The notes under the pieces were generated by a model. The model saw only the letters and a list, made by a program, of their open reading frames with translations, had not been told where the DNA came from and made no database searches. A program made the position numbers and the translations under genes. Source: a virus. From it: 37,667 nt of DNA. How positions within the stretch are numbered: the stretch's first letter is position 1; each line of letters starts with the position of its first letter. Below are positions 7,657 through 18,925 of the stretch, piece by piece. Where the stretch lies: the UHGV virus genome UHGV-0387565; one strand, given 5' to 3'.

Positions 7657-9125
7657 GCCTATCAGTAAAATTTGACGATCAGGAACTCGGGCGATACTTA
7701 AGTGTATTGTCCGGGTTCTCTCCGTTTAGCGGAGTAAATAGAGAGTCAGAACTCCTTGACGGAGCAGAAAGTGCAAAAGGAGAGGATTTTGGCTATATAA
7801 CATATAAATCAAAGACACTTGAAATGCCATTTGAAATTAAAGGTGATATCTTGGCAAGCTATGATGCGATCCAGAAGATCCTAAACGTCACAGAGCCAAA
7901 AAGGCTTGTGTTTGGGAATTATCCGGATCGCTATTTTTATGCTGTCCCTGATGGTAATTTTGATATAACACAGGTTGCAATGTTTGGGAAAGGCACGATC
8001 ACATGGCTTATCCCAGACGGAGTAGCGTACTCAACCGCAGAATTCTCCTTTGACGGAGTACAAAAAGACGGCTACCAGACCATTACAATCCAAAACAACG
8101 GTACAGAATGGGCGGATGTGGACTACGAGATCACGCACCAGCACGAAAACGGCTTTATCGGACTGGTAAGCCAGTATGGAGTCATCCAGCTCGGCAAACA
8201 GGAAGAGGCGGACGGAGAGAATTACGAAGCGTCCGAAGAACTGTTTAACGGTTATAGTCTGTTTCAAGACGATCACGGTACCTCTTATCAGAATCCGGAA
8301 AACACCACACAGGGAACGCTCGAAGTCAAGAATGTTGCCGGATATAACGTCATGGCATTAAAAGGTGGACAGGCAACATCCGGATTCTGGAACGGTGGAA
8401 TGAAAACACTTACTATCCCGGTGGACAGCGAGGGCAGACGTGGGGCAAAGAACTTTTACTGTTACACGCAGCACTGGTTTGAGTGTGGATTAATGGGACA
8501 GACCGGAGCGCAGACTATTGCGTTTCTGACAGGAGAAAATGAAGTGATCTGTTCTATGTCCATAAATAAAAACGATTCTGTTGGGAATACGGCGCATGTG
8601 GACTGGTTTGCACCACAAAACAAGAAAATTAAGACACTGGATTTCCAGCCGACATCCTACGAGGATAACCCGTTTAATTTAAAAATGGGCGGCGGACACA
8701 ATGACTTTTTAAAAGAGGGTGACAAGTTGCGTATTTTCTGGTACGGGAAGTATTACCACTTTACTATCCCGGAAATCAAAGATATGGAATGCGAGAAAAT
8801 CCAGATCTGGATTGGACAGTGGGGGGACCGAAATCTGTCGAACCAGTACGTTACGCACAACTATTTAAAAAGCATCTGGTTTCGTAAGGACAACGTGGAA
8901 AAATATCAGGATGTGCCAAACCGGTACCGTGCCGGAGATGTGGTGTCTATAGACGGGGAGAGTACGAAGGTCTACGTTAATGGGATGGTGGCTAAGGGAG
9001 ATGAGATTACGGGGACGGACTATTTTAAAGTGCCACCCGGAACAACAGAAGTGCAGTTCTGCTACTCTTCCTTTTCTTCTCCGCCGCCCCAGATTAAAGC
9101 GAAAATGCGGGAGGTTTACTTGTAA
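7653..9125 (+). CDS. distal tail protein (Dit), extended form
   Basis: 490-aa ORF immediately after TMP, with TTG start overlapping the TMP stop (ATTGA) and RBS AGGAGGGG. The size suggests an inserted carbohydrate-binding domain. Confidence 0.6.
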   Translation: MSLSVKFDDQELGRYLSVLSGFSPFSGVNRESELLDGAESAKGEDFGYITYKSKTLEMPFEIKGDILASYDAIQKILNVTEPKRLVFGNYPDRYFYAVPDGNFDITQVAMFGKGTITWLIPDGVAYSTAEFSFDGVQKDGYQTITIQNNGTEWADVDYEITHQHENGFIGLVSQYGVIQLGKQEEADGENYEASEELFNGYSLFQDDHGTSYQNPENTTQGTLEVKNVAGYNVMALKGGQATSGFWNGGMKTLTIPVDSEGRRGAKNFYCYTQHWFECGLMGQTGAQTIAFLTGENEVICSMSINKNDSVGNTAHVDWFAPQNKKIKTLDFQPTSYEDNPFNLKMGGGHNDFLKEGDKLRIFWYGKYYHFTIPEIKDMECEKIQIWIGQWGDRNLSNQYVTHNYLKSIWFRKDNVEKYQDVPNRYRAGDVVSIDGESTKVYVNGMVAKGDEITGTDYFKVPPGTTEVQFCYSSFSSPPPQIKAKMREVYL

Positions 9126-11608
9126 TGGACAGTATTAGAATTGCGATTCTGAGCGCAAATAACACACCAGTAGCATTTATGGACAACGCACACAAAAAGT
9201 CTATGCACTACTGGAAAGACGAATTGCACGAATACTTACAGGGTGCGGCAAATACTTACACCTTTACGGTGTCCGCAAAGCATCAGGATGCAGAGAATGT
9301 TACCGCCGGAAATAAGGTGGCGTTTATACACAAAGGGAAATCCTATTACTTAAATATCGTAAATACGGAGCAAACAGAAGAGACGATCACAGCTACGGCG
9401 TGGTCGTTATCTTTTGAGCTAATCAACGAGGATGCAGGGGAATACAAGGCAGGACAGGCGATGAGTTTTGAAGAGTACCTTGCCATATTTGATGCGGAGA
9501 GAACGCTGAAATTGGGGCTTAACGAGGTATCAGATAAACGGATCGCCAATGAGTGGACAGGCACAACGTCTGTATTAAAGAGGCTATTTTCTCTAGCCAA
9601 CGTATTTTCGGCAGAAATCGAGTTTGAAACGGTTTTAAATAAGGACTACTCCTTAAAAGAGATCGTCCTGAATGTCTACCGAGAACACTCCAACACCAAC
9701 AGCGGAGTCGGAGAATACCGGAATGACATTGTACTGCGGTACGGGAAAGGAATTACCGGAATTCGAAAAACCACAGATGCCGAGAAGCTTTACACCTGTA
9801 TCCAGCCGACCGGGAAAGACGGGCTGACGATCAACGGACTGGACAAAAAAGAATACGATGAGAACGGGAATATCGAGTACTTTACAGACGGCGCAATCAT
9901 CCGGGCACCGCAGGCAAGGGACCGATTCCCGTCCAACATCGTAAACAAGGACGATGCTTATATCATGCTGCGGAAAGAGTACGATACAGACAGCAAGGAC
10001 AAGCTCTATAGCATGGCACTATCTGACCTCAAGACCGCATCCGAGCCAGTGGTAACCTATGAGGTAGACGGGTACTTTGATACTAATATCGGGGACACGG
10101 TGAGGATGCAGGATCAGGAGTGGACACCAGTGCTTTATCTACAGGCGAGAGTGTCCGAACAGGTGCGCAGTCTTACCAATCCAAAGACTGCCAAGACGGT
10201 GTTTAGCAACTACAAGGAGTTGACTTCCGAAATATCCGACGATCTCATTAAGAGGATGGAGGACTTGATCTCAAAAAACAAAGTCTATACCTGTTCCATC
10301 TCTACAAACAACGGCACTATCTTCAAAAACGGGATTGGCAGCACAACGCTGACAGCTTACGCTTACAACAACGGCGCGGATGTGTCAAGTAACCTACAGT
10401 TCCGTTGGAGCAAAGACGGACAGGAGTTTTATGTCGGTAGGAGCGTGACGGTAAATGCATCTGATGTGGATGTAAAAGCAGTGTACTCATTTGAGGCTTT
10501 GGAAAATGGGATAAAACGTGGGTATTACGAGGTCACAGTGACTAAAGTAGAAGATGGAGCACCGGGAGACCCCGGGAAAGACGGCGTAGGAATTGAGAGC
10601 GTGACCAAGTATTATTTGGCGTCTGAAAAAAGCACCGGAATTACAACATCCTCTTCCGGGTGGACAACTGCAATACAGACCATGACGGAAACAAAAAAAT
10701 ACTTATGGAGCTACGAGATAATCGCTTACACAGACGGCGCATCCACCAAGACAACTCCCGTGATTATCGGAGTGCACGGACAAAATGGAGCAGACGGGGA
10801 TTCCGGCATTATCGTGTCTTCAACAGCTCCGGAAAATCCAAAGGTTGGACAGCTCTGGCAGACAGCAAGCGGAGAGCCGATCAAGCGGTGGGATGGAAGT
10901 AGGTGGGTGATCCATTATATCGCAGTCGAGAATCTGGACGTGCAAACGCTCAGTGCAATCGTTGCTAACCTTGGAACTGTAACAGCCGGACTTATTAAGA
11001 GTAAGGATGGACACTTTTACATAAATGTAGACACCGGAGAGATCTACTCTGAAGATGAAAACGGGATAAACAGCTCTGCAATAAGCAAGGGTGTATTTGT
11101 GGCGAATGGGATGAACAGCGGCAGACACACAAGCTTATCTATATTCCCAACGCAGATTGCGCAGTATTTTGACGGAGCCACCATTTTAAACCTTGTTAAT
11201 TTTAAACGGGACGGTATATTTGTTAAAAACTCCGGATCATACGAAATAAACATATCTAAAGCAACAAATTATGACTCCGGAAAGATAAAAGGACCATTCG
11301 CCAGCACAAACTCATCCAACTATATACAGGCGGAGCTAATAAGGAGAGGGTGCGTGGTTACATGTAAAATCACGGCACTTATACAATTTCCAAACACAGG
11401 ATCGCACGGACCGTTTGACGAATTAAGGATCCCTGTAGGATATCGACCAGTCGTAGACATAGTAGAGACGTACAGCGAATTGGTTGGTACGTCAATTATC
11501 GGGACTGGCAGATATTATATTTCAAAAGACGGAGGAATATCCATTGTAACTGGCAAGACAGACTACTGTGAACGCATAAAGACATTTACATGGATTACGG
11601 ATGACTAA
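9125..11608 (+). CDS. tail-associated protein Tal / prophage tail endopeptidase-type baseplate protein (likely receptor-binding region at the C-terminus)
   Basis: 827-aa ORF after Dit with RBS GGGAGG. Short collagen-like Gly-X-Y stretches (GAPGDPGKDGVG, GQNGADGDSG). Order TMP-Dit-Tal. Confidence 0.65.
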   Translation: MDSIRIAILSANNTPVAFMDNAHKKSMHYWKDELHEYLQGAANTYTFTVSAKHQDAENVTAGNKVAFIHKGKSYYLNIVNTEQTEETITATAWSLSFELINEDAGEYKAGQAMSFEEYLAIFDAERTLKLGLNEVSDKRIANEWTGTTSVLKRLFSLANVFSAEIEFETVLNKDYSLKEIVLNVYREHSNTNSGVGEYRNDIVLRYGKGITGIRKTTDAEKLYTCIQPTGKDGLTINGLDKKEYDENGNIEYFTDGAIIRAPQARDRFPSNIVNKDDAYIMLRKEYDTDSKDKLYSMALSDLKTASEPVVTYEVDGYFDTNIGDTVRMQDQEWTPVLYLQARVSEQVRSLTNPKTAKTVFSNYKELTSEISDDLIKRMEDLISKNKVYTCSISTNNGTIFKNGIGSTTLTAYAYNNGADVSSNLQFRWSKDGQEFYVGRSVTVNASDVDVKAVYSFEALENGIKRGYYEVTVTKVEDGAPGDPGKDGVGIESVTKYYLASEKSTGITTSSSGWTTAIQTMTETKKYLWSYEIIAYTDGASTKTTPVIIGVHGQNGADGDSGIIVSSTAPENPKVGQLWQTASGEPIKRWDGSRWVIHYIAVENLDVQTLSAIVANLGTVTAGLIKSKDGHFYINVDTGEIYSEDENGINSSAISKGVFVANGMNSGRHTSLSIFPTQIAQYFDGATILNLVNFKRDGIFVKNSGSYEINISKATNYDSGKIKGPFASTNSSNYIQAELIRRGCVVTCKITALIQFPNTGSHGPFDELRIPVGYRPVVDIVETYSELVGTSIIGTGRYYISKDGGISIVTGKTDYCERIKTFTWITDD

Positions 11609-11632
11609 AGGAGTGAATATGGAGATCAGAGC

Positions 11633-11657
11633 GAGACCGTGAGGGTCTTATTTTTAT
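11633..11657 (+). terminator. putative rho-independent terminator after the tail genes
   Basis: Hairpin gAGACC-gtgag-GGTCTt followed by TATTTTTAT. Confidence 0.4.
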
Positions 11658-11678
11658 ACTTAAAACTGGAGGAAAGAC

Positions 11679-11984
11679 ATGACAGAAATATTGACAGAAA
11701 CCTATAAACTTGCGTTGCCGATAGTACTCACAGCATTTATGGGATACATTGTGTGGCTACTCAAAAATCAGAAGAAGGACAGGGACGCAAATAGTGCAGG
11801 GACAATGCTACTTTTGCGCGTCCAACTTATCGAGTACCACGAAAAATGGACAAAAAGAGGGTATGTTACGAAGCATGGAATTGAGAATTTTATCGAAATG
11901 TATGATGCATACCATAAACTCGGCGGGAATGGAATGGCAACGCAACTATTAGCAGAAGTAAAAGAACTGCCAATAAAAGGATAA
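11679..11984 (+). CDS. membrane protein, possible holin (one N-terminal transmembrane segment)
   Basis: 101-aa protein with hydrophobic segment LALPIVLTAFMGYIVWLL followed by a charged stretch. RBS GGAGGAAAG. Lysis-cassette position. Confidence 0.4.
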   Translation: MTEILTETYKLALPIVLTAFMGYIVWLLKNQKKDRDANSAGTMLLLRVQLIEYHEKWTKRGYVTKHGIENFIEMYDAYHKLGGNGMATQLLAEVKELPIKG

Positions 11985-11997
11985 AGGAGAATGCAGC

Positions 11998-12246
11998 ATG
12001 AAAAAAATTAACTGGATTGTAAGAATTAAAAACAAGGCATTCTGGGTGGCACTGATCCCGGCACTCTTGCTGTTGGTACAGGCTATTGCGGCAGTGTTTG
12101 GATTTGCGATCGATCTCGGAGACCTTGGAGACAAGTTATTGACTGTAATTAATGCGCTCTTTGCAGTTCTGGCAATCCTTGGTGTAGTGGTAGACCCAAC
12201 AACACCGGGAACAGGAGATTCGGAGAGGGCGCTTACATATAAGTAG
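11998..12246 (+). CDS. holin, phi-LC3-like family
   Basis: 82 aa. N-terminus MKKINWIVRIKNKAFWVALIPALLLL plus a second hydrophobic helix and a C-terminal DPTTPGTGDSE tail, matching my recollection of LC3-type holins. RBS AAAGGAGAA. Confidence 0.7.
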   Translation: MKKINWIVRIKNKAFWVALIPALLLLVQAIAAVFGFAIDLGDLGDKLLTVINALFAVLAILGVVVDPTTPGTGDSERALTYK

Positions 12247-12252
12247 ATTCGG

Positions 12253-12281
12253 GAGGGCTTGGAAACAGGCTCTCTTTTATT
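12253..12281 (+). terminator. putative rho-independent terminator downstream of the holin
   Basis: Stem GAGGGCTTG-gaaa-CAGGCTCTC (9 bp with 2 G-U pairs) followed by TTTTATT. Confidence 0.45.
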
Positions 12282-12297
12282 GTGCGACGTCGCACGG
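12279..12297. repeat. palindromic element copy 1 (ATTGTGCGACGTCGCAC, containing the 14-bp perfect palindrome GTGCGACGTCGCAC) placed just 5' of an RBS
   Basis: Seen directly in the sequence. The same 17-mer recurs exactly 300 bp downstream. Confidence 0.8.
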
Positions 12298-12312
12298 AAA
12301 GGAGTTAAAATC

Positions 12313-12579
12313 ATGGGAAGCAAGGAATTTTTAAACATTTGCAAGGCAAAGGTAGCAGATTATTTTAACCAAAACAAGGACAAGACGGACACATCTGGCA
12401 ACATGACTGTGAATGATGTATTTGTAGTTTGGTATTGCAAAACACTGCAAAATCACAAGGCATTGCTTAGTACGCCAGTAAGTGATGGTATGTATTACGA
12501 GATCACTTACAATGGAGATAAAAATGAGATCTATTTTGATGCTTATAAAAAGTGGGAAAACATTAAATTTGATATGTAA
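12313..12579 (+). CDS. hypothetical protein (88 aa) between holin and endolysin
   Basis: RBS GGAAAGGAG lies 8 nt before ATG 12313. Flanked on both sides by the palindromic 17-mer. Confidence 0.55.
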   Translation: MGSKEFLNICKAKVADYFNQNKDKTDTSGNMTVNDVFVVWYCKTLQNHKALLSTPVSDGMYYEITYNGDKNEIYFDAYKKWENIKFDM

Positions 12580-12597
12580 TTGTGCGACGTCGCACAA
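12580..12597. repeat. palindromic element copy 2 (TTGTGCGACGTCGCACAA, 18-bp perfect palindrome) placed just 5' of an RBS
   Basis: Seen directly. Followed by AAGGAGGTG and ATG 12610. Confidence 0.8.
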
Positions 12598-12609
12598 GGA
12601 GGTGAGAAC

Positions 12610-12699
12610 ATGAGCGAACAGAACGAATTTGGTAGAGTATCCGCAGAGGAACTGGAAAAGGCATTTGAGACAGAAGAACAGGAGGAAGAGAAAGAATGA
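12610..12699 (+). CDS. small acidic leader ORF (29 aa) translationally coupled to the endolysin
   Basis: Strong RBS AAGGAGGTG. The stop TGA overlaps the endolysin ATG (ATGA). Confidence 0.25.
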   Translation: MSEQNEFGRVSAEELEKAFETEEQEEEKE

Positions 12700-13499
12700 A
12701 AATTGGCTTAAGGGGAGGACACTCCCCAAATTGTAAAGGTGCAATCGGTCTGATCGATGAGCAGGCAGAAGTACGGAAGATCTACAATGAGCTCGCACCA
12801 ATGTTACAGGCTGTCGGTCATACTGTGGTTGATTGTAATTCCAACGCATCCAATGTGTCTGGTGAGCTGTCTGACGGCACAAATAAGGCGAATAGTGCCG
12901 GGTGCGATATTTACGTAACTTTGCACATGAATGCGGCAGGAGCGGCGTCAGCTGGCGGCACAGAGGTGTGGTTATACGATGCATCTAACCAGACCATGAA
13001 TACGATCGCAAGTAATATCTGCAAAAATTTTGCCGGAAAAGGATTTGCGAATCGTGGAGTTAAATACAGTTCCGGATACCACGATCTGAATGCATCGAAC
13101 ATGCCGGCTATGATCGTGGAGACATTATTCTGCACTGGCACAGGTGATGTGGCCAGATATCGAAATTTAGGTACAAAAGGAATTGCGGAGCTGATTGCAA
13201 AGGCGATTGACAGTAGAACGTCTGCGGAAAATGGACAGGGAAATCAGAATACAAAGACAGACCAGGAAGGAGAAGAAACTATGCAGTGTATGTTTACAGT
13301 GGAAGGAAAAGGATGTGTTTATTGGATGCATGATGGAGTTGTAACACCTTTGGAGCATCCAGACGAAATGAAGATTTTACAGGAGATCTATAAAGCGAAT
13401 TATGGACATGATATGCCAACTTACAAGTGGAGTCCAAACGGACCGTGGTATGTGAGACTGATGGCGCCATTGTATCGGGATCCAGTCAAAACTATCTAA
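12696..13499 (+). CDS. endolysin, N-acetylmuramoyl-L-alanine amidase (Amidase_3 type) with a C-terminal domain of unrecognised type
   Basis: N-terminal motifs MKIGLRGGHS...G..DE and TLHMNA...GTEVW, consistent with zinc-dependent MurNAc-LAA amidases. The last ~75 aa are W/Y-rich with no recognisable LysM/SH3. RBS GGAGGAAG. Confidence 0.85.
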   Translation: MKIGLRGGHSPNCKGAIGLIDEQAEVRKIYNELAPMLQAVGHTVVDCNSNASNVSGELSDGTNKANSAGCDIYVTLHMNAAGAASAGGTEVWLYDASNQTMNTIASNICKNFAGKGFANRGVKYSSGYHDLNASNMPAMIVETLFCTGTGDVARYRNLGTKGIAELIAKAIDSRTSAENGQGNQNTKTDQEGEETMQCMFTVEGKGCVYWMHDGVVTPLEHPDEMKILQEIYKANYGHDMPTYKWSPNGPWYVRLMAPLYRDPVKTI

Positions 13500-13505
13500 T
13501 AAAAT

Positions 13506-13546
13506 CCCCTCGGAGAGCTGATCTCTGAGGGGAATAATATTATTTT
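13506..13546 (+). terminator. rho-independent terminator of the late/lysis operon
   Basis: 11-bp stem CCCCTCGGAGA/TCTCTGAGGGG with loop GCTGA, followed by an AT-rich stretch ending in a short T run (AATAATATTATTTT). Confidence 0.6.
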
Positions 13547-13587
13547 CCATCAAAATGTATTTTTAATAAATTCAATTCAAACCCCTC

Positions 13588-13598
13588 TGTGCTATAAT
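13588..13598 (+). promoter_or_regulatory. putative extended -10 promoter (TGcTATAAT)
   Basis: TGCTATAAT at 13590..13598, about 30 nt upstream of the 13628 ORF. Confidence 0.3.
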
Positions 13599-13627
13599 AT
13601 ATGTAGTCAATGCGAGGGGGGATAATC

Positions 13628-13807
13628 ATGGAATACCAAATCTACGAATCTTACGATACGTTTTTATTATATCAGGAATTTATGGAGATACCCGGAAATA
13701 CATTTGAATTTCGGCTGCCAGAAGGGATGATCCTGACAACCGAAATGATGCACACCTTTCTGCGTGCGGCGTATATGAGTGTTGGACGGATGGAGTTGCC
13801 GTCCTGA
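13628..13807 (+). CDS. small hypothetical protein (59 aa), stand-alone gene between the lysis terminator and the integrase-proximal inverted repeat
   Basis: Strong RBS GAGGGGGG 6 nt before the ATG, with its own -10 element. Acidic F/Y/M-rich product. Confidence 0.45.
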   Translation: MEYQIYESYDTFLLYQEFMEIPGNTFEFRLPEGMILTTEMMHTFLRAAYMSVGRMELPS

Positions 13808-13846
13808 ATATTGTATCATTTTCGTGTATATTTATAATATGTAGAA

Positions 13847-13898
13847 ATATTATAGGTTATTGTTATTTGGTGGCCCGGATTGTAGTAACCTATAATAT
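13847..13898. other. candidate attP for the serine integrase: perfect 13-bp inverted arms ATATTATAGGTTA / TAACCTATAATAT separated by 26 bp
   Basis: Seen directly. Lies 27 bp from the 3' end of the serine recombinase gene. Its ~50-bp size and imperfect internal dyad symmetry are typical of serine-integrase attP sites. Confidence 0.4.
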
Positions 13899-13924
13899 AT
13901 CCGCAAACCCTATAATCAGAGGGT

Positions 13925-15343
13925 TCACGATATGTAAAGATGGAAGATTAGTTTGCCATTTTTCTTGTCATAAACGATATCCTCTACCAAACTCCTCATA
14001 AAAATCCCTTTGGTATCATAGTCTATTGCATCATTTTTAATCACATCATATACAGTTTGCACGTTCTTGAGCACGTCAGATTTTGTTTTCGTATCTTCAT
14101 TATTCTTATTGAGATTTTCCAGTTGCATCAAAATATCTTCCCTGTCTTTTTGCAGACGCTCTTTGTTCCGTTTATATTCTTCCAAAGTATCTACCTCATT
14201 TTCATAGGCAAGACGGATCCGTTTCTCCCTGTTGGAAATTTTATCAAGTTCAGACAAGAGTGATTCACGTTCTGATATCTTCTCGCCGGTCTCAGCGGAG
14301 TGGTAGGAGTATTCAAAATCCATACCAGAAAGAAGTTTTTCAAAATACTCTTCCAGTGCAGCGATCACTTTTTTCTCTGATATCGAACAGGATTCGGTAT
14401 GTATTCCTTTACTGTACTTATAACACTGGAAACCAGGTGAGTGCCTGTTTGCACCATTGTAAGAAAGAGAAGCTCCGCAGTACCCGCATTTTAAAATCCC
14501 TGATAACCAATGTTTACATGAGGATACATCACGGCGTTTCAGTGGCTTATATGTAGTTTGTATCTTTTTCATGCGCTCTTCGAAGCGTTCTTTTGAATAA
14601 TAGACCTCGTGAGTTCCGATAAACGATATACCGTTCCAAACGACAAGACCGTAGTAAAATGGATTTTTCAAGATTCTTTCTACGCTACGGGATTCAAATG
14701 GATTTCCTCGTCTTGTACGTACTCCCATACCATTTAGTTTTCGTGTTATCTTCGTAACATCCGAGTTATGGTAGTCAAATTCATCACAGATAAAGTCTAC
14801 AATCTTCATTTCGTCTTGATCAATTTTATAAGGATCTCCGTTTCCAACAGCGCGATACCCAAAAGGTGGGGACATCTGGTATCCTTTTTTTGTAGCCTTT
14901 TCTTTCATCCCTCTTAGGACTTCGCCAGAAAGCCGGATAGAGTAGTATTCATCCATCCATTCAATGATTCGTTCGATCAGAGAGCCGAATGGACCATCTA
15001 TCAAAGGTTCTGACACACTCACAACATCAACGTTGCTTTGCTTCCGCAGCAGGGATTTGTATACGATAGATTCTTCTTGATTTCTTGCGAATCTGCTGAA
15101 TTTCCAAACCAGAATCACATCAACCGGATGATCGGATGATTTTGCAAGCCCGATCATTTTCTGAAACTCCGGACGCTTGTCTGCTTTTCTTCCGGAAATT
15201 CCTAATTCAAAGAAAACTTTTAAAATGACAATATTGTTTTTAGTAGCATATTCCCGTAATAATTTTTCTTGAGAATCCGGTGAAAGCTCTTCCTGCTTAT
15301 CAGTGGATACGCGAACGTAACCATAGGCATACTTTACGCTCAT
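13925..15343 (-). CDS. int: large serine recombinase (phage integrase)
   Basis: N-terminal resolvase catalytic domain (YGYVRVSTDKQ with catalytic Ser), recombinase domain, Cys-rich zinc-ribbon region (CKHWLSGILKCGYCG...FQCYKY) and C-terminal coiled-coil. RBS GAGGAGATG. Confidence 0.95.
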   Translation of the reverse strand: MSVKYAYGYVRVSTDKQEELSPDSQEKLLREYATKNNIVILKVFFELGISGRKADKRPEFQKMIGLAKSSDHPVDVILVWKFSRFARNQEESIVYKSLLRKQSNVDVVSVSEPLIDGPFGSLIERIIEWMDEYYSIRLSGEVLRGMKEKATKKGYQMSPPFGYRAVGNGDPYKIDQDEMKIVDFICDEFDYHNSDVTKITRKLNGMGVRTRRGNPFESRSVERILKNPFYYGLVVWNGISFIGTHEVYYSKERFEERMKKIQTTYKPLKRRDVSSCKHWLSGILKCGYCGASLSYNGANRHSPGFQCYKYSKGIHTESCSISEKKVIAALEEYFEKLLSGMDFEYSYHSAETGEKISERESLLSELDKISNREKRIRLAYENEVDTLEEYKRNKERLQKDREDILMQLENLNKNNEDTKTKSDVLKNVQTVYDVIKNDAIDYDTKGIFMRSLVEDIVYDKKNGKLIFHLYIS

Positions 15344-15487
15344 AGTAGATCATCTCCTCATTTAATTTATGTAAAAATAAGTACAAAAATAACAGCCAGC
15401 ACATGAACAAATGTTCTGGATTGTGTAGCTGTTCCGAAGATGATACAATATTCTTGGATTTCAATCGCATATCTTCGGATATGTATA

Positions 15488-15526
15488 CCGTCTCAGTGTT
15501 GGTAGCACTGGGGCGGTATTTTATTG
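15488..15526. terminator. hairpin at the 3' end of the lipoprotein gene, possible bidirectional terminator/insulator between the lysogeny operon and int
   Basis: CCGTCTCAGTG-ttggtag-CACTGGGGCGG (11 bp with 2 G-U pairs), followed on the + strand by TATTTTATTG. On the - strand it directly follows the lipoprotein stop. Confidence 0.4.
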
Positions 15527-18263: not shown

Positions 18264-18464
18264 GTGATTGATACGGAAAATAATGTTTTTGACAAGATAT
18301 CTAAAAAAGCTTCAGAAAAAGGTATTTCCATCAACTTATTAGAAAGTCGTGCCGGCGTTTCCACCGGAAGTATTTATAAGTGGAATACAGTTAGTCCTAC
18401 AGTAAGAAACTTATCTAAAGTAGCAAAGGTGCTAGGCTGCACTATAGATGAGTTGTTAGAGTAA
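18264..18464 (+). CDS. Cro-like XRE-family HTH regulator
   Basis: 66-aa product with HTH (GISINLLESRAGVSTGSIYKW). GTG start as in the ORF track, though the RBS spacing is poor so the exact start is uncertain. Confidence 0.6.
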   Translation: MIDTENNVFDKISKKASEKGISINLLESRAGVSTGSIYKWNTVSPTVRNLSKVAKVLGCTIDELLE

Positions 18465-18564
18465 CACTTCGTGTTGATAAATATTTGTAAATACGGAGTA
18501 TGGAAGTTTGTAGGACAACATACGTAGGACGATCAACCTGCATACAGTAAAGAGGGGTGGTGAA

Positions 18565-18717
18565 ATGAAAGGAATCGAAGTAGTAAGCATGATTAAAATC
18601 AATGGATCTTGGATAAGCCAAGAGGATTTAAACCGAGAGGAACTTTCTCAAATCTTGGAGAAAAAAATAGATGAAACGATGAAAAATATAGGATTCGAAA
18701 GAAGAAAAACCGCCTAG
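18565..18717 (+). CDS. small hypothetical protein (50 aa)
   Basis: Strong RBS AAGAGGGGTGGTG before ATG 18565. The stop sits inside the 14-bp palindrome ACCGCCTAGGCGGT. Confidence 0.35.
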   Translation: MKGIEVVSMIKINGSWISQEDLNREELSQILEKKIDETMKNIGFERRKTA

Positions 18718-18739
18718 GCGGTAGATGGGAGGACAAGCT

Positions 18740-18925
18740 ATGAAAGTTAAAGGAACTTACCATTGCCAGACTACTCAACAGCCCAATGCATTAAACGGTT
18801 GGGACATCCGTTCTGTATCTGTTGAGTTACCGGAGCAGGACAAGCCCTACTGGCATAAGGTTGCAGCAGCTGTGATCGGGTTTGGGCTAGCGGTAATCGG
18901 ATGGTGGCTAGTGGTTGGGTATTAA
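18740..18925 (+). CDS. small membrane protein (61 aa, C-terminal TM helix)
   Basis: RBS GGGAGGACAAG. C-terminus VAAAVIGFGLAVIGWWLVVGY. Confidence 0.4.
   Translation: MKVKGTYHCQTTQQPNALNGWDIRSVSVELPEQDKPYWHKVAAAVIGFGLAVIGWWLVVGY

What the first reader, a model, noticed from the sequence alone, without database searches (positions are those of the whole stretch)
12279..12600. Two copies of a palindromic 17-mer (ATTGTGCGACGTCGCAC), exactly 300 bp apart, each immediately 5' of an RBS in the lysis cassette
Copy 1 at 12279..12295 precedes RBS GGAAAGGAG and the unknown 88-aa gene. Copy 2 at 12580..12596 (extended to an 18-bp perfect palindrome) precedes AAGGAGGTG, the 29-aa acidic leader ORF and the endolysin. 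The palindromes would form GC-rich hairpins ~10 nt upstream of each Shine-Dalgarno. They could be RNA processing or stability elements, sites for a dimeric DNA-binding regulator, or translational control elements timing endolysin synthesis. The enclosed 88-aa protein (MGSKEFLNICKAKVADYFNQ...) has no recognisable function.
Basis: seen in the sequence. Interest (0 to 1): 0.55.

Follow-up and report, generated by a model that had tools for sequence, protein, structure and literature searches.

The report
Palindromic joints flanking phage gene cassette
The two identical palindromes are the left and right copies of a short conserved 'joint' that gut Lachnospiraceae phages place just ahead of ribosome-binding sites; here they bracket a 300-bp accessory gene slotted between the holin and endolysin genes, which makes this a real but not unprecedented gene-shuffling element whose direct function is still untested.

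Summary
ATTGTGCGACGTCGCAC occurs at 12279-12295 and 12579-12595 (copy 2 lies one base before the coordinates given), exactly 300 bp apart, and nowhere else in the window. The motif is not specific to lysis. In related Ruminococcus gnavus phages and other Lachnospiraceae mobile elements, TTGTGCGACRTCGCAC sits directly before the Shine-Dalgarno of many unrelated genes. These include at least five endolysin types, serine and tyrosine integrases, DUF6275, a Tad2-like anti-defence gene and several small ORFs. It usually follows a terminator or a stop codon. The closest relatives lack the DUF6275 gene and carry one copy at the holin|endolysin junction; RG-TP1 is an exact empty site. The duplication therefore marks a 300-bp promoter-less cassette insertion. 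phiRg507T2_3 holds a different cassette in the same slot, also flanked by the motif. Where the motif is kept it is constrained (3/16 polymorphic sites against 40/67 synonymous sites). About 20% of homologous junctions have deleted it, so it is dispensable. Covariation is too weak to separate an RNA hairpin from a protein-binding site. The best reading is a conserved intercistronic joint at which modules recombine. Its likely direct role, which is inferred and not shown, is a 5' hairpin for the downstream cistron. The nearest analogue is the PeSL element of T4-type phages.

The parts
11998..12246 (+). Holin gene (Phage_holin_1); the upstream module of the junction
   Evidence: Pfam PF04531 E 2.6e-25; phrog holin families
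12251..12278 (+). Intrinsic-terminator-like hairpin (9-11 bp stem, GAAA loop) followed by a T-run, directly before copy 1
   Evidence: Terminator scan hit at 12251-12276. Folds at -15.9 kcal/mol, z -4.4. It is the most conserved non-coding stretch among relatives, pi 0.027.
12279..12295 (+). Copy 1 of the 17-mer. The family-wide motif TTGTGCGACGTCGCAC is 12280-12295 and the palindromic core is 12282-12295. This is the left junction of the cassette.
   Evidence: RNA hairpin -7.9 kcal/mol.
12296..12304 (+). Shine-Dalgarno GGAAAGGAG of the DUF6275 gene
   Evidence: Read from sequence. The same motif-to-SD-to-ATG arrangement occurs in L019, L023, L091, L114 and others.
12313..12579 (+). DUF6275 gene (88 aa); the cargo of the inserted cassette
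   Evidence: PF19791 E 8e-35; about 7,900 relatives. Absent from RG-TP1, phiRg507T2_2, phiRgIBDN1 and phiRgPS_6. AF2 model pLDDT 89 with no solved-structure match.
12296..12595 (+). The 300-bp segment present here and absent from the RG-TP1 empty site: SD, DUF6275 ORF and the second motif copy. Because of the repeat it can equally be drawn as 12279-12578.
   Evidence: Alignment of the window with RG-TP1 and phiRg507T2_2 shows one clean gap bounded by the 17-mer.
12579..12597 (+). Copy 2 of the 17-mer (12579-12595), extending to the perfect 18-bp palindrome at 12580-12597. This is the right junction of the cassette. Its first A is the last base of the DUF6275 stop codon.
   Evidence: RNA hairpin -9.3 kcal/mol, z -3.7.
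12596..12604 (+). Shine-Dalgarno AAGGAGGTG of the 29-aa leader ORF
   Evidence: Read from sequence. Identical in the RG-TP1 empty site.
12610..12699 (+). Conserved 29-aa acidic ORF whose stop overlaps the endolysin start (ATGA)
   Evidence: Coding signature among relatives: pi at codon position 3 is 0.162 against 0.040 at position 2.
12696..13499 (+). Endolysin (N-acetylmuramoyl-L-alanine amidase, Amidase_3); the downstream module of the junction
   Evidence: PF01520 E 6e-23; phrog_435

Best explanation
SHOWN. The two 17-mers are the left and right junction copies of a short conserved palindromic joint, TTGTGCGAC(A/G)TCGCAC. Temperate phages and other mobile elements of Lachnospiraceae (the Ruminococcus/Mediterraneibacter gnavus and Dorea group) carry this joint immediately 5' of the Shine-Dalgarno of many different genes, usually right after a terminator T-run or a stop codon. 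In this phage a promoter-less 300-bp cassette (SD, DUF6275 ORF and one joint copy) occupies the holin-terminator|endolysin junction. The closest relatives have the same junction with a single joint copy and no cassette. Another relative has a Tad2-like cassette in the same slot, again with a joint copy on each side. The joint is the point at which upstream and downstream modules are recombined in many combinations. INFERRED, on how cassettes move. Cassettes enter and leave by recombination between joint copies, using short homology of 16-18 nt plus similar SDs. The phage's own single-strand-annealing recombinase or template switching at the hairpin could catalyse this. Loop-out between the two direct copies would regenerate the empty site exactly. 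INFERRED, on the joint's direct function (about 35-40% on its own). In the polycistronic mRNA the joint folds into a 6-7 bp hairpin with a 4-nt loop that abuts an unpaired strong SD. After cleavage in the AU-rich stretch just upstream (UUUUAUU, or UAAUU after a stop codon), the hairpin would sit at the 5' end of the downstream cistron, protect it from 5'-exonuclease and insulate its SD from upstream structure. The cggR-gapA, glnRA and clostridial cip-cel operons work this way. The element modulates expression and is not essential.
For: The repeat is real and not due to chance. RG-TP1 is an exact empty site and three other R. gnavus phages have one copy and no DUF6275 gene. The alignment gives a clean 300-bp gap bounded by the 17-mer. 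phiRg507T2_3 has two copies 545 bp apart flanking gp19, a tandem Tad2-like protein, in the same slot. Intergenic hits lie 12-24 nt before start codons of many unrelated genes, and the families were confirmed by Pfam. Across 185,579 species genomes there were only 42 SD-linked hits. About 28 are in Lachnospiraceae, all next to mobile-element genes, with 1-3 per genome. On mosaicism, about 70 upstream and about 73 downstream sequence clusters occur; the leader-endolysin module is joined to 7 upstream modules and the holin-terminator module to 4 downstream modules. On constraint, 3/16 motif sites are polymorphic against 40/67 third-codon sites (Fisher p 0.005), and pi is 0.049 against 0.16-0.17. 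On structure, hairpins fold at -7.9 and -9.3 kcal/mol with the SD unpaired. The two gene starts rank 3rd and 5th of 48 in the window for structure abutting the SD. The stem GTGCG/CGCAC is kept while the central 4 nt vary, and one lineage changed the outer pair on both sides, TTGCGACGTCGCAA. Precedents are PeSL-mediated shuffling (PMC2839356, PMC4122927), 5' hairpins stabilising RNase Y products (bioRxiv 10.1101/2023.03.12.532304) and intergenic stem-loops in a clostridial operon (PMC10311766).
Against: No transcript or 5'-end data exist, so the RNA role is pure inference. Covariation is weak: 89% of cells are paired, only 3 cells show change on both sides, and single-site variants split evenly between wobble-compatible and pair-breaking. 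Conserved half-sites with a variable centre fit a dimeric protein site equally well. The stem sequence is almost invariant across unrelated contexts, which a purely structural element does not need. Seventeen of 73 homologous junctions (7 of 35 distinct haplotypes) have deleted the palindrome while the leader ORF and endolysin remain intact, and the window's own integrase leader lacks it. Any function is therefore dispensable. In integrase contexts the motif lies 13-14 nt from the SD and is followed by a -10-like ATATAAT, which fits an operator better than an SD-abutting hairpin. Recombination at the joint is inferred from comparative patterns and was not observed. Module boundaries would coincide with gene boundaries in any case.
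Confidence: 0.55

Rival explanations
1. The palindrome is a recognition site for a sequence-specific dimeric protein. As duplex DNA it would act as an operator or transcriptional roadblock. As an RNA hairpin it would act as a translational operator next to the SD. Either way it would co-regulate endolysin, integrase and accessory cassettes.
For: The stem or half-site sequence is nearly invariant across dozens of unrelated contexts while the central 4 nt vary, which is typical of bipartite dimer sites. The motif is under constraint. There is little compensatory change. In integrase contexts it sits directly upstream of a -10-like ATATAAT or ATATACT, where a repressor would bind. Its TGTGC-N6-GCACA layout recalls CRP/FNR-type sites; this is from my own knowledge and is a lead, not a test.
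Against: No promoter-like site accompanies the two copies in this window, and the SD follows them immediately. No further copies lie near the lysogeny switch or anywhere else in the window or in two complete relatives. No cognate protein has been identified. The motif is deleted in about 20% of junctions. It was found only on mobile elements, although the genome scan required an adjacent SD, so promoter-proximal host sites were not tested.
Confidence: 0.2
2. The motif has no role in gene expression. It is only a recombination joint or scar, kept uniform by frequent recombination or gene conversion among co-infecting phages and prophages. It persists because it promotes module exchange.
For: It marks mosaic breakpoints in many pairwise combinations. 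It flanks alternative cassettes and exact empty sites. It is dispensable and prone to deletion. There is no covariation.
Against: Second-order selection for evolvability is weak. The fixed position against the SD, on the coding strand and right after terminators, is not required for a recombination joint. Low polymorphism relative to synonymous sites would need very frequent homogenisation. The centre varies while the stems do not.
Confidence: 0.2
3. The cassettes are inserted by a dedicated site-specific mechanism that recognises the palindrome. It would resemble integron attC recombination or a target-site duplication, perhaps using the element's integrase.
For: The empty site has one copy and the filled site has two identical copies. 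The cassettes are promoter-less single ORFs carried with one palindrome, as integron cassettes are. The motif is often adjacent to integrase genes.
Against: The motif occurs with both serine and tyrosine integrases, and in phages whose integrase leader lacks it. It is 16-18 nt long, not the 57-141 nt of an attC site, and no IntI-type gene or attI/Pc arrangement is present. The 300-bp insert has no terminal inverted repeats or transposase. A 17-bp target duplication fits no common transposase. Only 6 distinct two-copy arrangements were seen, too few to show that the copies are identical more often than chance.
Confidence: 0.04
4. The motif is a host genome-wide repeat, such as a REP-like, uptake or methylation-related sequence, that merely happens to be in the phage.
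For: It is a GC-rich palindrome in an AT-rich genome, and the G variant contains GACGTC.
Against: There are only 2 copies in 37.7 kb, 1-2 in complete relatives, and 42 SD-linked stretches in 185,579 species genomes with 1-3 per Lachnospiraceae genome, all beside mobile-element genes. In the viral scan, hits outside SD contexts lie inside long ORFs.
Confidence: 0.01

Closest known systems
PeSL (promoter-early stem-loop) regulatory cassettes of T4-type phages (Arbiol et al. 2010, PMC2839356; Comeau et al. 2014, PMC4122927)
   Same: Both are short conserved intergenic motifs spanning from the upstream stop codon to the SD and start of the next gene. Both contain a stem-loop and flank small non-essential ORFs. 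Both bound the insertions, deletions and replacements that distinguish close relatives. Recombination between copies is proposed to shuffle modules, and in T4-type phages it is shown to form mini-circles.
   Different: PeSLs are defined by a strong sigma-70-like early promoter plus a terminator stem-loop. No promoter accompanies the motif here, and the palindrome itself is not a terminator. A separate terminator often precedes it. The motif here is one nearly invariant 16-nt sequence, not a composite of variable layout. It has 1-2 copies per genome, not about 50. It occurs in temperate siphoviruses and integrative elements of Lachnospiraceae, not in lytic T4-type myoviruses. Mini-circles have not been looked for.
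Intercistronic 5' stabiliser and processing hairpins of Firmicutes operons (cggR-gapA and glnRA in B. subtilis, bioRxiv 10.1101/2023.03.12.532304; cip-cel operon of Ruminiclostridium cellulolyticum, PMC10311766)
   Same: A GC-rich stem-loop lies in an intercistronic region, downstream of an AU-rich single-stranded stretch and just upstream of the next cistron. In the known cases this hairpin ends up at the 5' end of the processed RNA and protects it from RNase J1.
   Different: Those hairpins are locus-specific and are supported by compensatory mutations. Here the same sequence recurs at many loci with almost no covariation, no cleavage site has been mapped, and the element is often deleted.
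Conserved boundary or linker sequences at module junctions of lambdoid and dairy phages (from my own knowledge of the HK620/lambdoid and Sfi21-type comparative literature; not re-read here)
   Same: Short conserved sequences at gene boundaries where mosaic joints cluster. They are interpreted as sites of homologous recombination between otherwise unrelated modules.
   Different: Those sequences are generally not palindromic and not tied to the SD. Their functional status is equally unresolved.
Integron gene cassettes and attC sites
   Same: Promoter-less single-ORF cassettes, each carried with one palindromic element, are arrayed head to tail. Empty and filled sites differ by exactly one cassette plus one repeat.
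   Different: attC sites are 57-141 nt imperfect palindromes with extrahelical bases, recombined as single-stranded hairpins by an IntI tyrosine recombinase at attI. None of these features is present here.

Membership tests
PeSL regulatory cassette (T4-type phages) | Contains a sigma-70-like promoter (-35 and -10 boxes) driving the downstream ORF | tested here: not met
   The promoter scan of 9000-15500 found no + strand promoter-like site at 12240-12312 or 12560-12609. The SD follows the palindrome with no room for a -10 box.
PeSL regulatory cassette (T4-type phages) | Contains a stem-loop acting as terminator or attenuator of upstream transcription | tested here: inconclusive
   A separate terminator-like hairpin with a T-run precedes copy 1. 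Copy 2 follows a stop codon with no terminator. The palindrome itself has no T-run after it.
PeSL regulatory cassette (T4-type phages) | Flanks variable ORFs and bounds the indels and replacements between closely related phages | tested here: met
   Empty site in RG-TP1, a DUF6275 cassette here and a Tad2-like cassette in phiRg507T2_3, all bounded by the motif. Combinatorial joints are shown.
PeSL regulatory cassette (T4-type phages) | Recombination between copies yields mini-circles or deletions | not testable with these tools
   This needs PCR or long-read sequencing of phage lysates.
Intrinsic (Rho-independent) terminator | GC-rich hairpin immediately followed by a U-run | tested here: not met
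   The palindrome is followed by the purine-rich stretches GGAAAGGAG and AAGGAGGTG. The terminator scan flagged only the upstream hairpin at 12251-12276.
5' stabiliser / selective RNA processing hairpin | Stable stem-loop between cistrons, preceded by an AU-rich single-stranded segment, with the SD left accessible | tested here: met
   -7.9 and -9.3 kcal/mol; UUUUAUU or UAAUU lies upstream; the SD is unpaired in the MFE and centroid structures. The two starts rank 3rd and 5th of 48 gene starts.
5' stabiliser / selective RNA processing hairpin | Pairing maintained by compensatory changes | tested here: inconclusive
   89% of cells are paired, 2 pairs and 3 cells show change on both sides, and the covariation score was reached by 5 of 500 shuffles. 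Most pairs never vary.
5' stabiliser / selective RNA processing hairpin | A processed 5' end maps at or just upstream of the hairpin, and the hairpin prolongs the half-life of the downstream RNA | not testable with these tools
   No transcriptome or 5'-end data are available.
Operator of a dimeric DNA-binding regulator | Dyad-symmetric half-sites with a tolerant central spacer | tested here: met
   GTGCG-N4-CGCAC is conserved and the centre varies: ACAT, ACGT, GTAT, TCAT, ATAT, ATGT.
Operator of a dimeric DNA-binding regulator | Positioned relative to a promoter (overlapping or just downstream of the -35/-10 boxes) | tested here: not met
   There is no promoter at either copy in the window. 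In relatives' integrase leaders a -10-like box does follow the motif, so the feature may be met in that context only.
Operator of a dimeric DNA-binding regulator | A cognate binding protein exists | not testable with these tools
   No candidate was identified. EMSA or pull-down would be needed.
Integron attC / gene cassette | An attC of 57-141 nt with an R''-L''/L'-R' structure, plus an adjacent IntI tyrosine recombinase with attI and Pc | tested here: not met
   The motif is 16-18 nt. The window's integrase is a large serine recombinase (Resolvase, Recombinase and Zn_ribbon_recom domains). The motif occurs with both serine and tyrosine integrases.
REP-like / genome-wide host repeat | Tens to hundreds of extragenic copies per host chromosome | tested here: not met
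   42 SD-linked stretches in 185,579 species genomes, with 1-3 per Lachnospiraceae genome, all beside mobile-element genes. Caveat: the scan required an adjacent AGGA.
Transposable element with target-site duplication | Terminal inverted repeats and/or a transposase within the inserted segment | tested here: not met
   The 300-bp insert holds only the DUF6275 ORF. No internal terminal inverted repeats were found.

The most novel reading that the evidence does not exclude
The 16-nt palindrome is the cis-element of a dedicated system, not yet described, that is shared by Lachnospiraceae phages and integrative elements. One version is a sequence-specific RNA- or DNA-binding factor that co-controls endolysin, integrase and anti-defence cassettes through this one site. 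The other is a hairpin-directed cassette-exchange mechanism, a phage 'mini-integron', that moves promoter-less accessory genes such as DUF6275 and Tad2-like genes between genomes. The near-invariance of the stem sequence across about 70 unrelated contexts, its restriction to mobile elements, and the one-copy empty versus two-copy filled sites are not excluded by either version.
Probability: 0.2. Interest if true: 0.75.

Novelty: new variant of a known kind. Interest (0 to 1): 0.5.

Why it matters
If the reading holds, this motif is a simple sequence flag for exchangeable accessory-gene slots in phages of an abundant gut bacterial family linked to inflammatory bowel disease. One occupant of the slot is a Tad2-like anti-Thoeris gene. 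DUF6275, a family of about 7,900 proteins with no known function, and other motif-flanked small ORFs therefore become candidates for anti-defence or host-interaction genes, found through their association with the motif. It would also extend PeSL-type modular shuffling at conserved intergenic cassettes from lytic T4-type phages of Proteobacteria to temperate siphoviruses and integrative elements of Firmicutes. Finally, it offers a compact natural part (terminator, hairpin and strong SD) for expressing genes in Lachnospiraceae. If the motif instead proves to be bound by a specific factor, it would define a regulon shared by phages and integrative elements.

Tried and rejected
1. Chance repeat: rejected.
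2. Lysis-specific regulatory element: rejected, because the motif precedes integrases and many other genes.
3. Promoter: no sigma-70-like hexamers with workable spacing at either copy (and direct reading). I also checked sigma-54-like and extended -10 readings by eye and dropped them.
4. Terminator: no T-run follows the palindrome.
5. Known RNA family: the Rfam E-value scan of 11600-13700 gave only two sub-threshold hits, both elsewhere.
6. Host genome-wide repeat: rejected.
7. Structure versus sequence by covariation: pair counts on 22 distinct variants were inconclusive. Wobble-compatible and pair-breaking single variants were about equally common on either strand.
8. Target-site-duplication signal from identical central bases in the two copies of a genome: only 6 distinct two-copy arrangements (5 same, 1 mixed). 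Near-identical backbones differ at this CpG position, so no inference is possible.
9. Function of DUF6275: no PDB sequence hit. The AF2 model is confident, but Foldseek against PDB gave nothing at E <= 0.001. No paper mentions DUF6275.
10. Literature: neither R. gnavus phage paper mentions the motif, and the 14-mers do not occur in the searchable library.
11. Known transcription-factor consensus sequences recalled from memory (cre, Rex, LexA, ComR box, Spo0A box): none fits. A CRP/FNR-like TGTGN-N6-NCACA layout is only a loose resemblance.
12. The 'no-ORF' motif hits in viral contigs lie inside 335-475-codon frames and were set aside as coding or chance hits.
Full report
**Observation.** The 17-mer ATTGTGCGACGTCGCAC is present twice on the + strand, at 12279-12295 and 12579-12595. 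The start-to-start distance is exactly 300 bp. Copy 2 extends to the perfect 18-bp palindrome TTGTGCGACGTCGCACAA at 12580-12597. Shuffles of the window give 0.03 expected matches at up to 3 mismatches. The 14-nt core has no further copy in the 37.7-kb window at up to 2 mismatches. The surrounding order is as follows:

- tail fibre (9125-11608)
- a small membrane protein, phrog_4105 (11679-11984)
- holin, Phage_holin_1 (11998-12246)
- a terminator-like hairpin with a T-run (12251-12278)
- copy 1
- SD GGAAAGGAG
- an 88-aa gene (12313-12579)
- copy 2, whose first A is the last base of the TAA stop
- SD AAGGAGGTG
- a 29-aa acidic ORF (12610-12699) whose stop overlaps the endolysin start
- Amidase_3 endolysin (12696-13499)
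- a large serine integrase on the opposite strand (13925-15343)

The 88-aa protein is a clear member of DUF6275 (PF19791, E 8e-35), a family with no known function.

**Why there are two copies.** The nearest cultured relatives are temperate Ruminococcus (Mediterraneibacter) gnavus siphoviruses. RG-TP1, phiRg507T2_2, phiRgIBDN1 and phiRgPS_6 all lack the DUF6275 gene. Each has a single copy of the motif between the holin terminator's T-run and the SD of the 29-aa ORF. RG-TP1 reads ...CTCTTTT-ATTGTGCGACGTCGCAC-AAGGAGGTGAGAACATG, which is an exact empty site. A three-way alignment shows one clean 300-bp gap bounded by the 17-mer. phiRgPS_6 has a different holin and a different terminator hairpin but the same motif and downstream sequence. 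phiRg507T2_3 has two copies 545 bp apart in the same slot. They flank gp19, which Pfam identifies as a tandem Tad2-like (Thoeris anti-defence 2-like) protein, and an Amidase_2 endolysin follows. Viral contigs repeat the DUF6275 arrangement with 300-301-bp spacing (L019, L023, L084, L091, L114). The 300-bp periodicity is therefore one promoter-less cassette: SD, 267-bp ORF and one joint copy.

**The motif is not specific to the lysis cassette.** A scan of IMG/VR for TTGTGCGACRTCGCAC stopped at its 120-stretch limit. Nearly all intergenic hits lie 12-24 nt upstream of a start codon and directly 5' of an SD. They usually follow a terminator hairpin with a T-run, or a stop codon. The downstream genes are unrelated to one another. 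They include:

- the 29-aa ORF with the Amidase_3 endolysin
- Amidase_2, Amidase_2 plus glucosaminidase, GH25, and Amidase_3 plus choline-binding endolysins
- large serine recombinases with at least five different N-termini
- tyrosine integrases
- an HTH_17 excisionase-like protein
- DUF6275 and Tad2-like proteins
- a 63-aa protein family, a 127-148-aa protein family and several small acidic ORFs

These families were confirmed by Pfam. Hits not linked to an SD lie inside 335-475-codon reading frames and are the handful of chance or coding matches expected in a collection of that size. In 185,579 species-representative genomes the SD-linked motif occurs in only 42 stretches. About 28 are in Lachnospiraceae (Dorea, Mordavella, Acetatifactor, C. 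symbiosum and unnamed MAGs), with 1-3 per genome, each beside a mobile-element gene. The remainder are ORF-less matches in high-GC unrelated phyla. This disposes of the genome-wide host motif alternative. One caveat remains: the scan required an adjacent AGGA, so promoter-proximal host sites were not tested.

**A joint between modules.** Among 194 distinct SD-linked instances, the 116 nt upstream fall into about 70 clusters and the 118 nt downstream into about 73 clusters. The leader-endolysin module is joined to 7 different upstream modules. The holin-terminator module is joined to 4 different downstream modules: leader-endolysin, Amidase_2 endolysin, DUF6275 and Tad2-like. Sequence similarity between phages therefore starts or stops at the motif in many combinations.

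**Constraint and dispensability.** I drew two samples that do not depend on the motif, anchored on the endolysin protein and on DUF6275. Of 73 endolysin-anchored junctions, about three-quarters keep the full motif or a single-substitution variant of it. Seventeen carry internal deletions of the palindrome in front of an intact leader ORF and endolysin, for example ATTGCACAACAGGAGG, TTTTATCGCACGG, ATTATGCAAGGAGG and ATTGTGCGGAAAGG. That is 7 of 35 distinct haplotypes. Among haplotypes that keep the motif, diversity compares as follows:

| Region | Polymorphic sites | pi |
|---|---|---|
| Motif (16 nt) | 3/16 | 0.049 |
| Third codon positions | 40/67 | 0.16-0.17 |
| Spacer upstream of the terminator | 18/20 | 0.27 |
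| SD | - | 0.062 |
| Terminator hairpin | - | 0.027 |

The difference between the motif and third codon positions is significant (Fisher p 0.005). The motif is thus constrained or homogenised where present, yet it can be lost. The window's own integrase leader lacks it, although relatives with the same upstream sequence have it. DUF6275 genes at 74% identity or less, from other phage groups, have no such flanks. The motif belongs to this phage and mobile-element group, not to DUF6275.

**Structure or sequence?** As RNA the copies fold into 6-7-bp stems with a 4-nt loop (-7.9 and -9.3 kcal/mol; z -2.2 and -3.7). The upstream terminator folds separately (-15.9 kcal/mol) and the SD stays unpaired. 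The two gene starts rank 3rd and 5th of 48 in the window for structure abutting the SD, against a median of -1.4 kcal/mol. At homologous positions the stem GTGCG/CGCAC is kept while the centre varies (ACAT, ACGT, GTAT, TCAT, ATAT, ATGT). One lineage has the outer pair changed on both sides (TTGCGACGTCGCAA). A few variants are G.U-compatible. The formal pair count is weak, however: 89% of cells are paired, only 3 cells show change on both sides, and most pairs never vary. Single-site variants break pairing about as often as they preserve it. Conserved arms with a variable centre fit an RNA hairpin and a dimeric protein site equally well. Rfam has no matching family.

**Mechanism: what is shown and what is inferred.**

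- Shown: the two copies bound a cassette insertion at a conserved junction, and the same junction motif bounds alternative cassettes and mosaic joints across a family of Lachnospiraceae mobile elements.
- Inferred: cassettes move by recombination between joint copies. These phages encode Sak4- or ERF-type annealing proteins according to the records' annotation. Loop-out between the direct copies would regenerate the empty site exactly.
- Inferred, with lower confidence: the direct function is that of an intercistronic 5' hairpin. The motif lies on the coding strand, against an exposed strong SD and downstream of an AU-rich single-stranded stretch. This geometry matches the stabilising hairpins at the 5' ends of RNase Y products in cggR-gapA and glnRA (bioRxiv 10.1101/2023.03.12.532304) and the intergenic stem-loops controlling processing of the clostridial cip-cel operon (PMC10311766).
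- Against this reading: near-invariance of the sequence, weak covariation, frequent deletion, and the integrase contexts, where the motif lies 13-14 nt from the SD and directly before a -10-like box. Those contexts suit an operator better.

**Comparison with known elements.** The closest described system is the PeSL of T4-type phages. PeSLs are conserved intergenic cassettes that run from the upstream stop codon to the SD and start of the next ORF. They contain a stem-loop, flank non-essential ORFs and mediate indels and replacements between relatives (PMC2839356 section 13; PMC4122927). The present element works like a PeSL as a shuffling joint but is not a member of that family. It has no promoter, it is a single 16-nt palindrome, it has 1-2 copies per genome, and it lives in temperate Firmicutes phages and integrative elements. 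It is also not an intrinsic terminator, an attC site, a REP element or a transposon end; the membership table gives the feature-by-feature tests. The two R. gnavus phage genome papers do not mention it, and the motif string is absent from the searchable literature.

**The enclosed gene.** DUF6275 is a large family, with 7,913 relatives at E <= 0.001. It is found in phages of very different Firmicutes and of Fusobacterium, with 73-78% DNA identity over its 3' two-thirds. An AlphaFold model is confident (pLDDT 89, pTM 0.81) and shows one N-terminal helix packed on a five-stranded antiparallel sheet. It has no significant match among solved structures by sequence or by fold. The same slot holds a Tad2-like anti-defence gene in a sister phage, which makes an accessory or anti-defence role a reasonable guess. 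That is inference only.

**Verdict.** The feature is real and non-random, and the duplication is explained: the two copies are cassette junctions. The motif is a previously undescribed, family-wide joint of Lachnospiraceae mobile elements and a new variant of the conserved-intergenic-cassette theme. Its biochemical role is unresolved. Interest is moderate, 0.5.

Noticed in passing
window 15405-15416 (- strand), about 60 nt upstream of the integrase start at 15343: GAACATTTGTTC is a perfect GAAC-N4-GTTC, the Gram-positive LexA (Cheo-box) layout. Relatives' integrase leaders keep GAAC...GTTC with a different N4 (gaacacacgttc, gaacatctgttc, gaacactcgttc, gaactgttgttc). This suggests SOS control of integrase or of a divergent transcript.
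   Followed up: partly
window 12610-12699: The 29-aa highly acidic ORF (MSEQNEFGRVSAEELEKAFETEEQEEEKE) overlaps the endolysin start (ATGA). It is conserved with a coding signature: pi at codon position 3 is 0.162 against 0.040 at position 2. It appears to be a translated leader coupled to the endolysin. Other endolysin types in the same slot lack it, although one has a different 41-aa acidic ORF (L046).
   Followed up: partly
window 12251-12278: A strong, highly conserved intrinsic-terminator-like hairpin (-15.9 kcal/mol; pi 0.027) sits between the holin and the endolysin. The endolysin and any cassette must therefore be expressed by read-through or by processing of read-through transcripts. 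phiRgPS_6 has a different hairpin at the same place.
   Followed up: partly
L126 (MT980837.1, phiRg507T2_3) 18310-18819: gp19, annotated as hypothetical, is a tandem Tad2-like (Thoeris anti-defence 2-like, PF11195, E 7e-26) protein. It occupies the motif-flanked slot between the holin terminator and the endolysin. gp19-like genes ending ...DDWVFVD* precede the motif in several other loci (L044, L090, L108, L141, L168).
   Followed up: partly
window 12413-12573 (3' two-thirds of the DUF6275 gene): This stretch has 73-78% nucleotide identity to genes in phages of Fusobacterium, Lactobacillus, Enterococcus, Latilactobacillus and Clostridium. That is unusually high DNA-level conservation across distant hosts for an 88-aa protein of unknown function. 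The AF2 model is confident but has no solved structural relative.
   Followed up: partly
L021, L027, L036, L132, L133, L143, L144, L154, L160 and others (integrase leaders): Integrase genes of different families (serine PF00239, tyrosine PF00589) share about 45 nt of upstream sequence: a small hairpin, TTATTTTTATAC(C/G)CA..T, the motif, and then a -10-like ATATAAT, ATATACT or ATATATT before the GGAAGGTG SD. In L275-L286 the same TATTTTTATACGCAAAAT precedes DUF6275 without the motif.
   Followed up: no
L172, L173, L185, L191, L194, L208-L215, L225, L226, L234, L241: At least five different internal deletions of the palindrome are seen at the same junction, for example ATTG[...]CACAA and TTTTAT[...]CGCACGG. 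This is consistent with palindrome-mediated slippage and shows that the element is prone to deletion.
   Followed up: partly
L086, motif at about 3762 (- orientation): Here the motif directly follows what looks like a tRNA 3' end (ggttcgaatcccaac). This hints that in some elements it lies at or next to an attachment-site boundary.
   Followed up: no
L007, L013, L029, L038 and similar loci: The perfect-palindrome 16-mer also recurs inside long ORFs (335-475 codons), where it encodes a '(L)CDVA' peptide. The same gene families are hit repeatedly. These were treated as coding or chance matches and not examined further.
   Followed up: no
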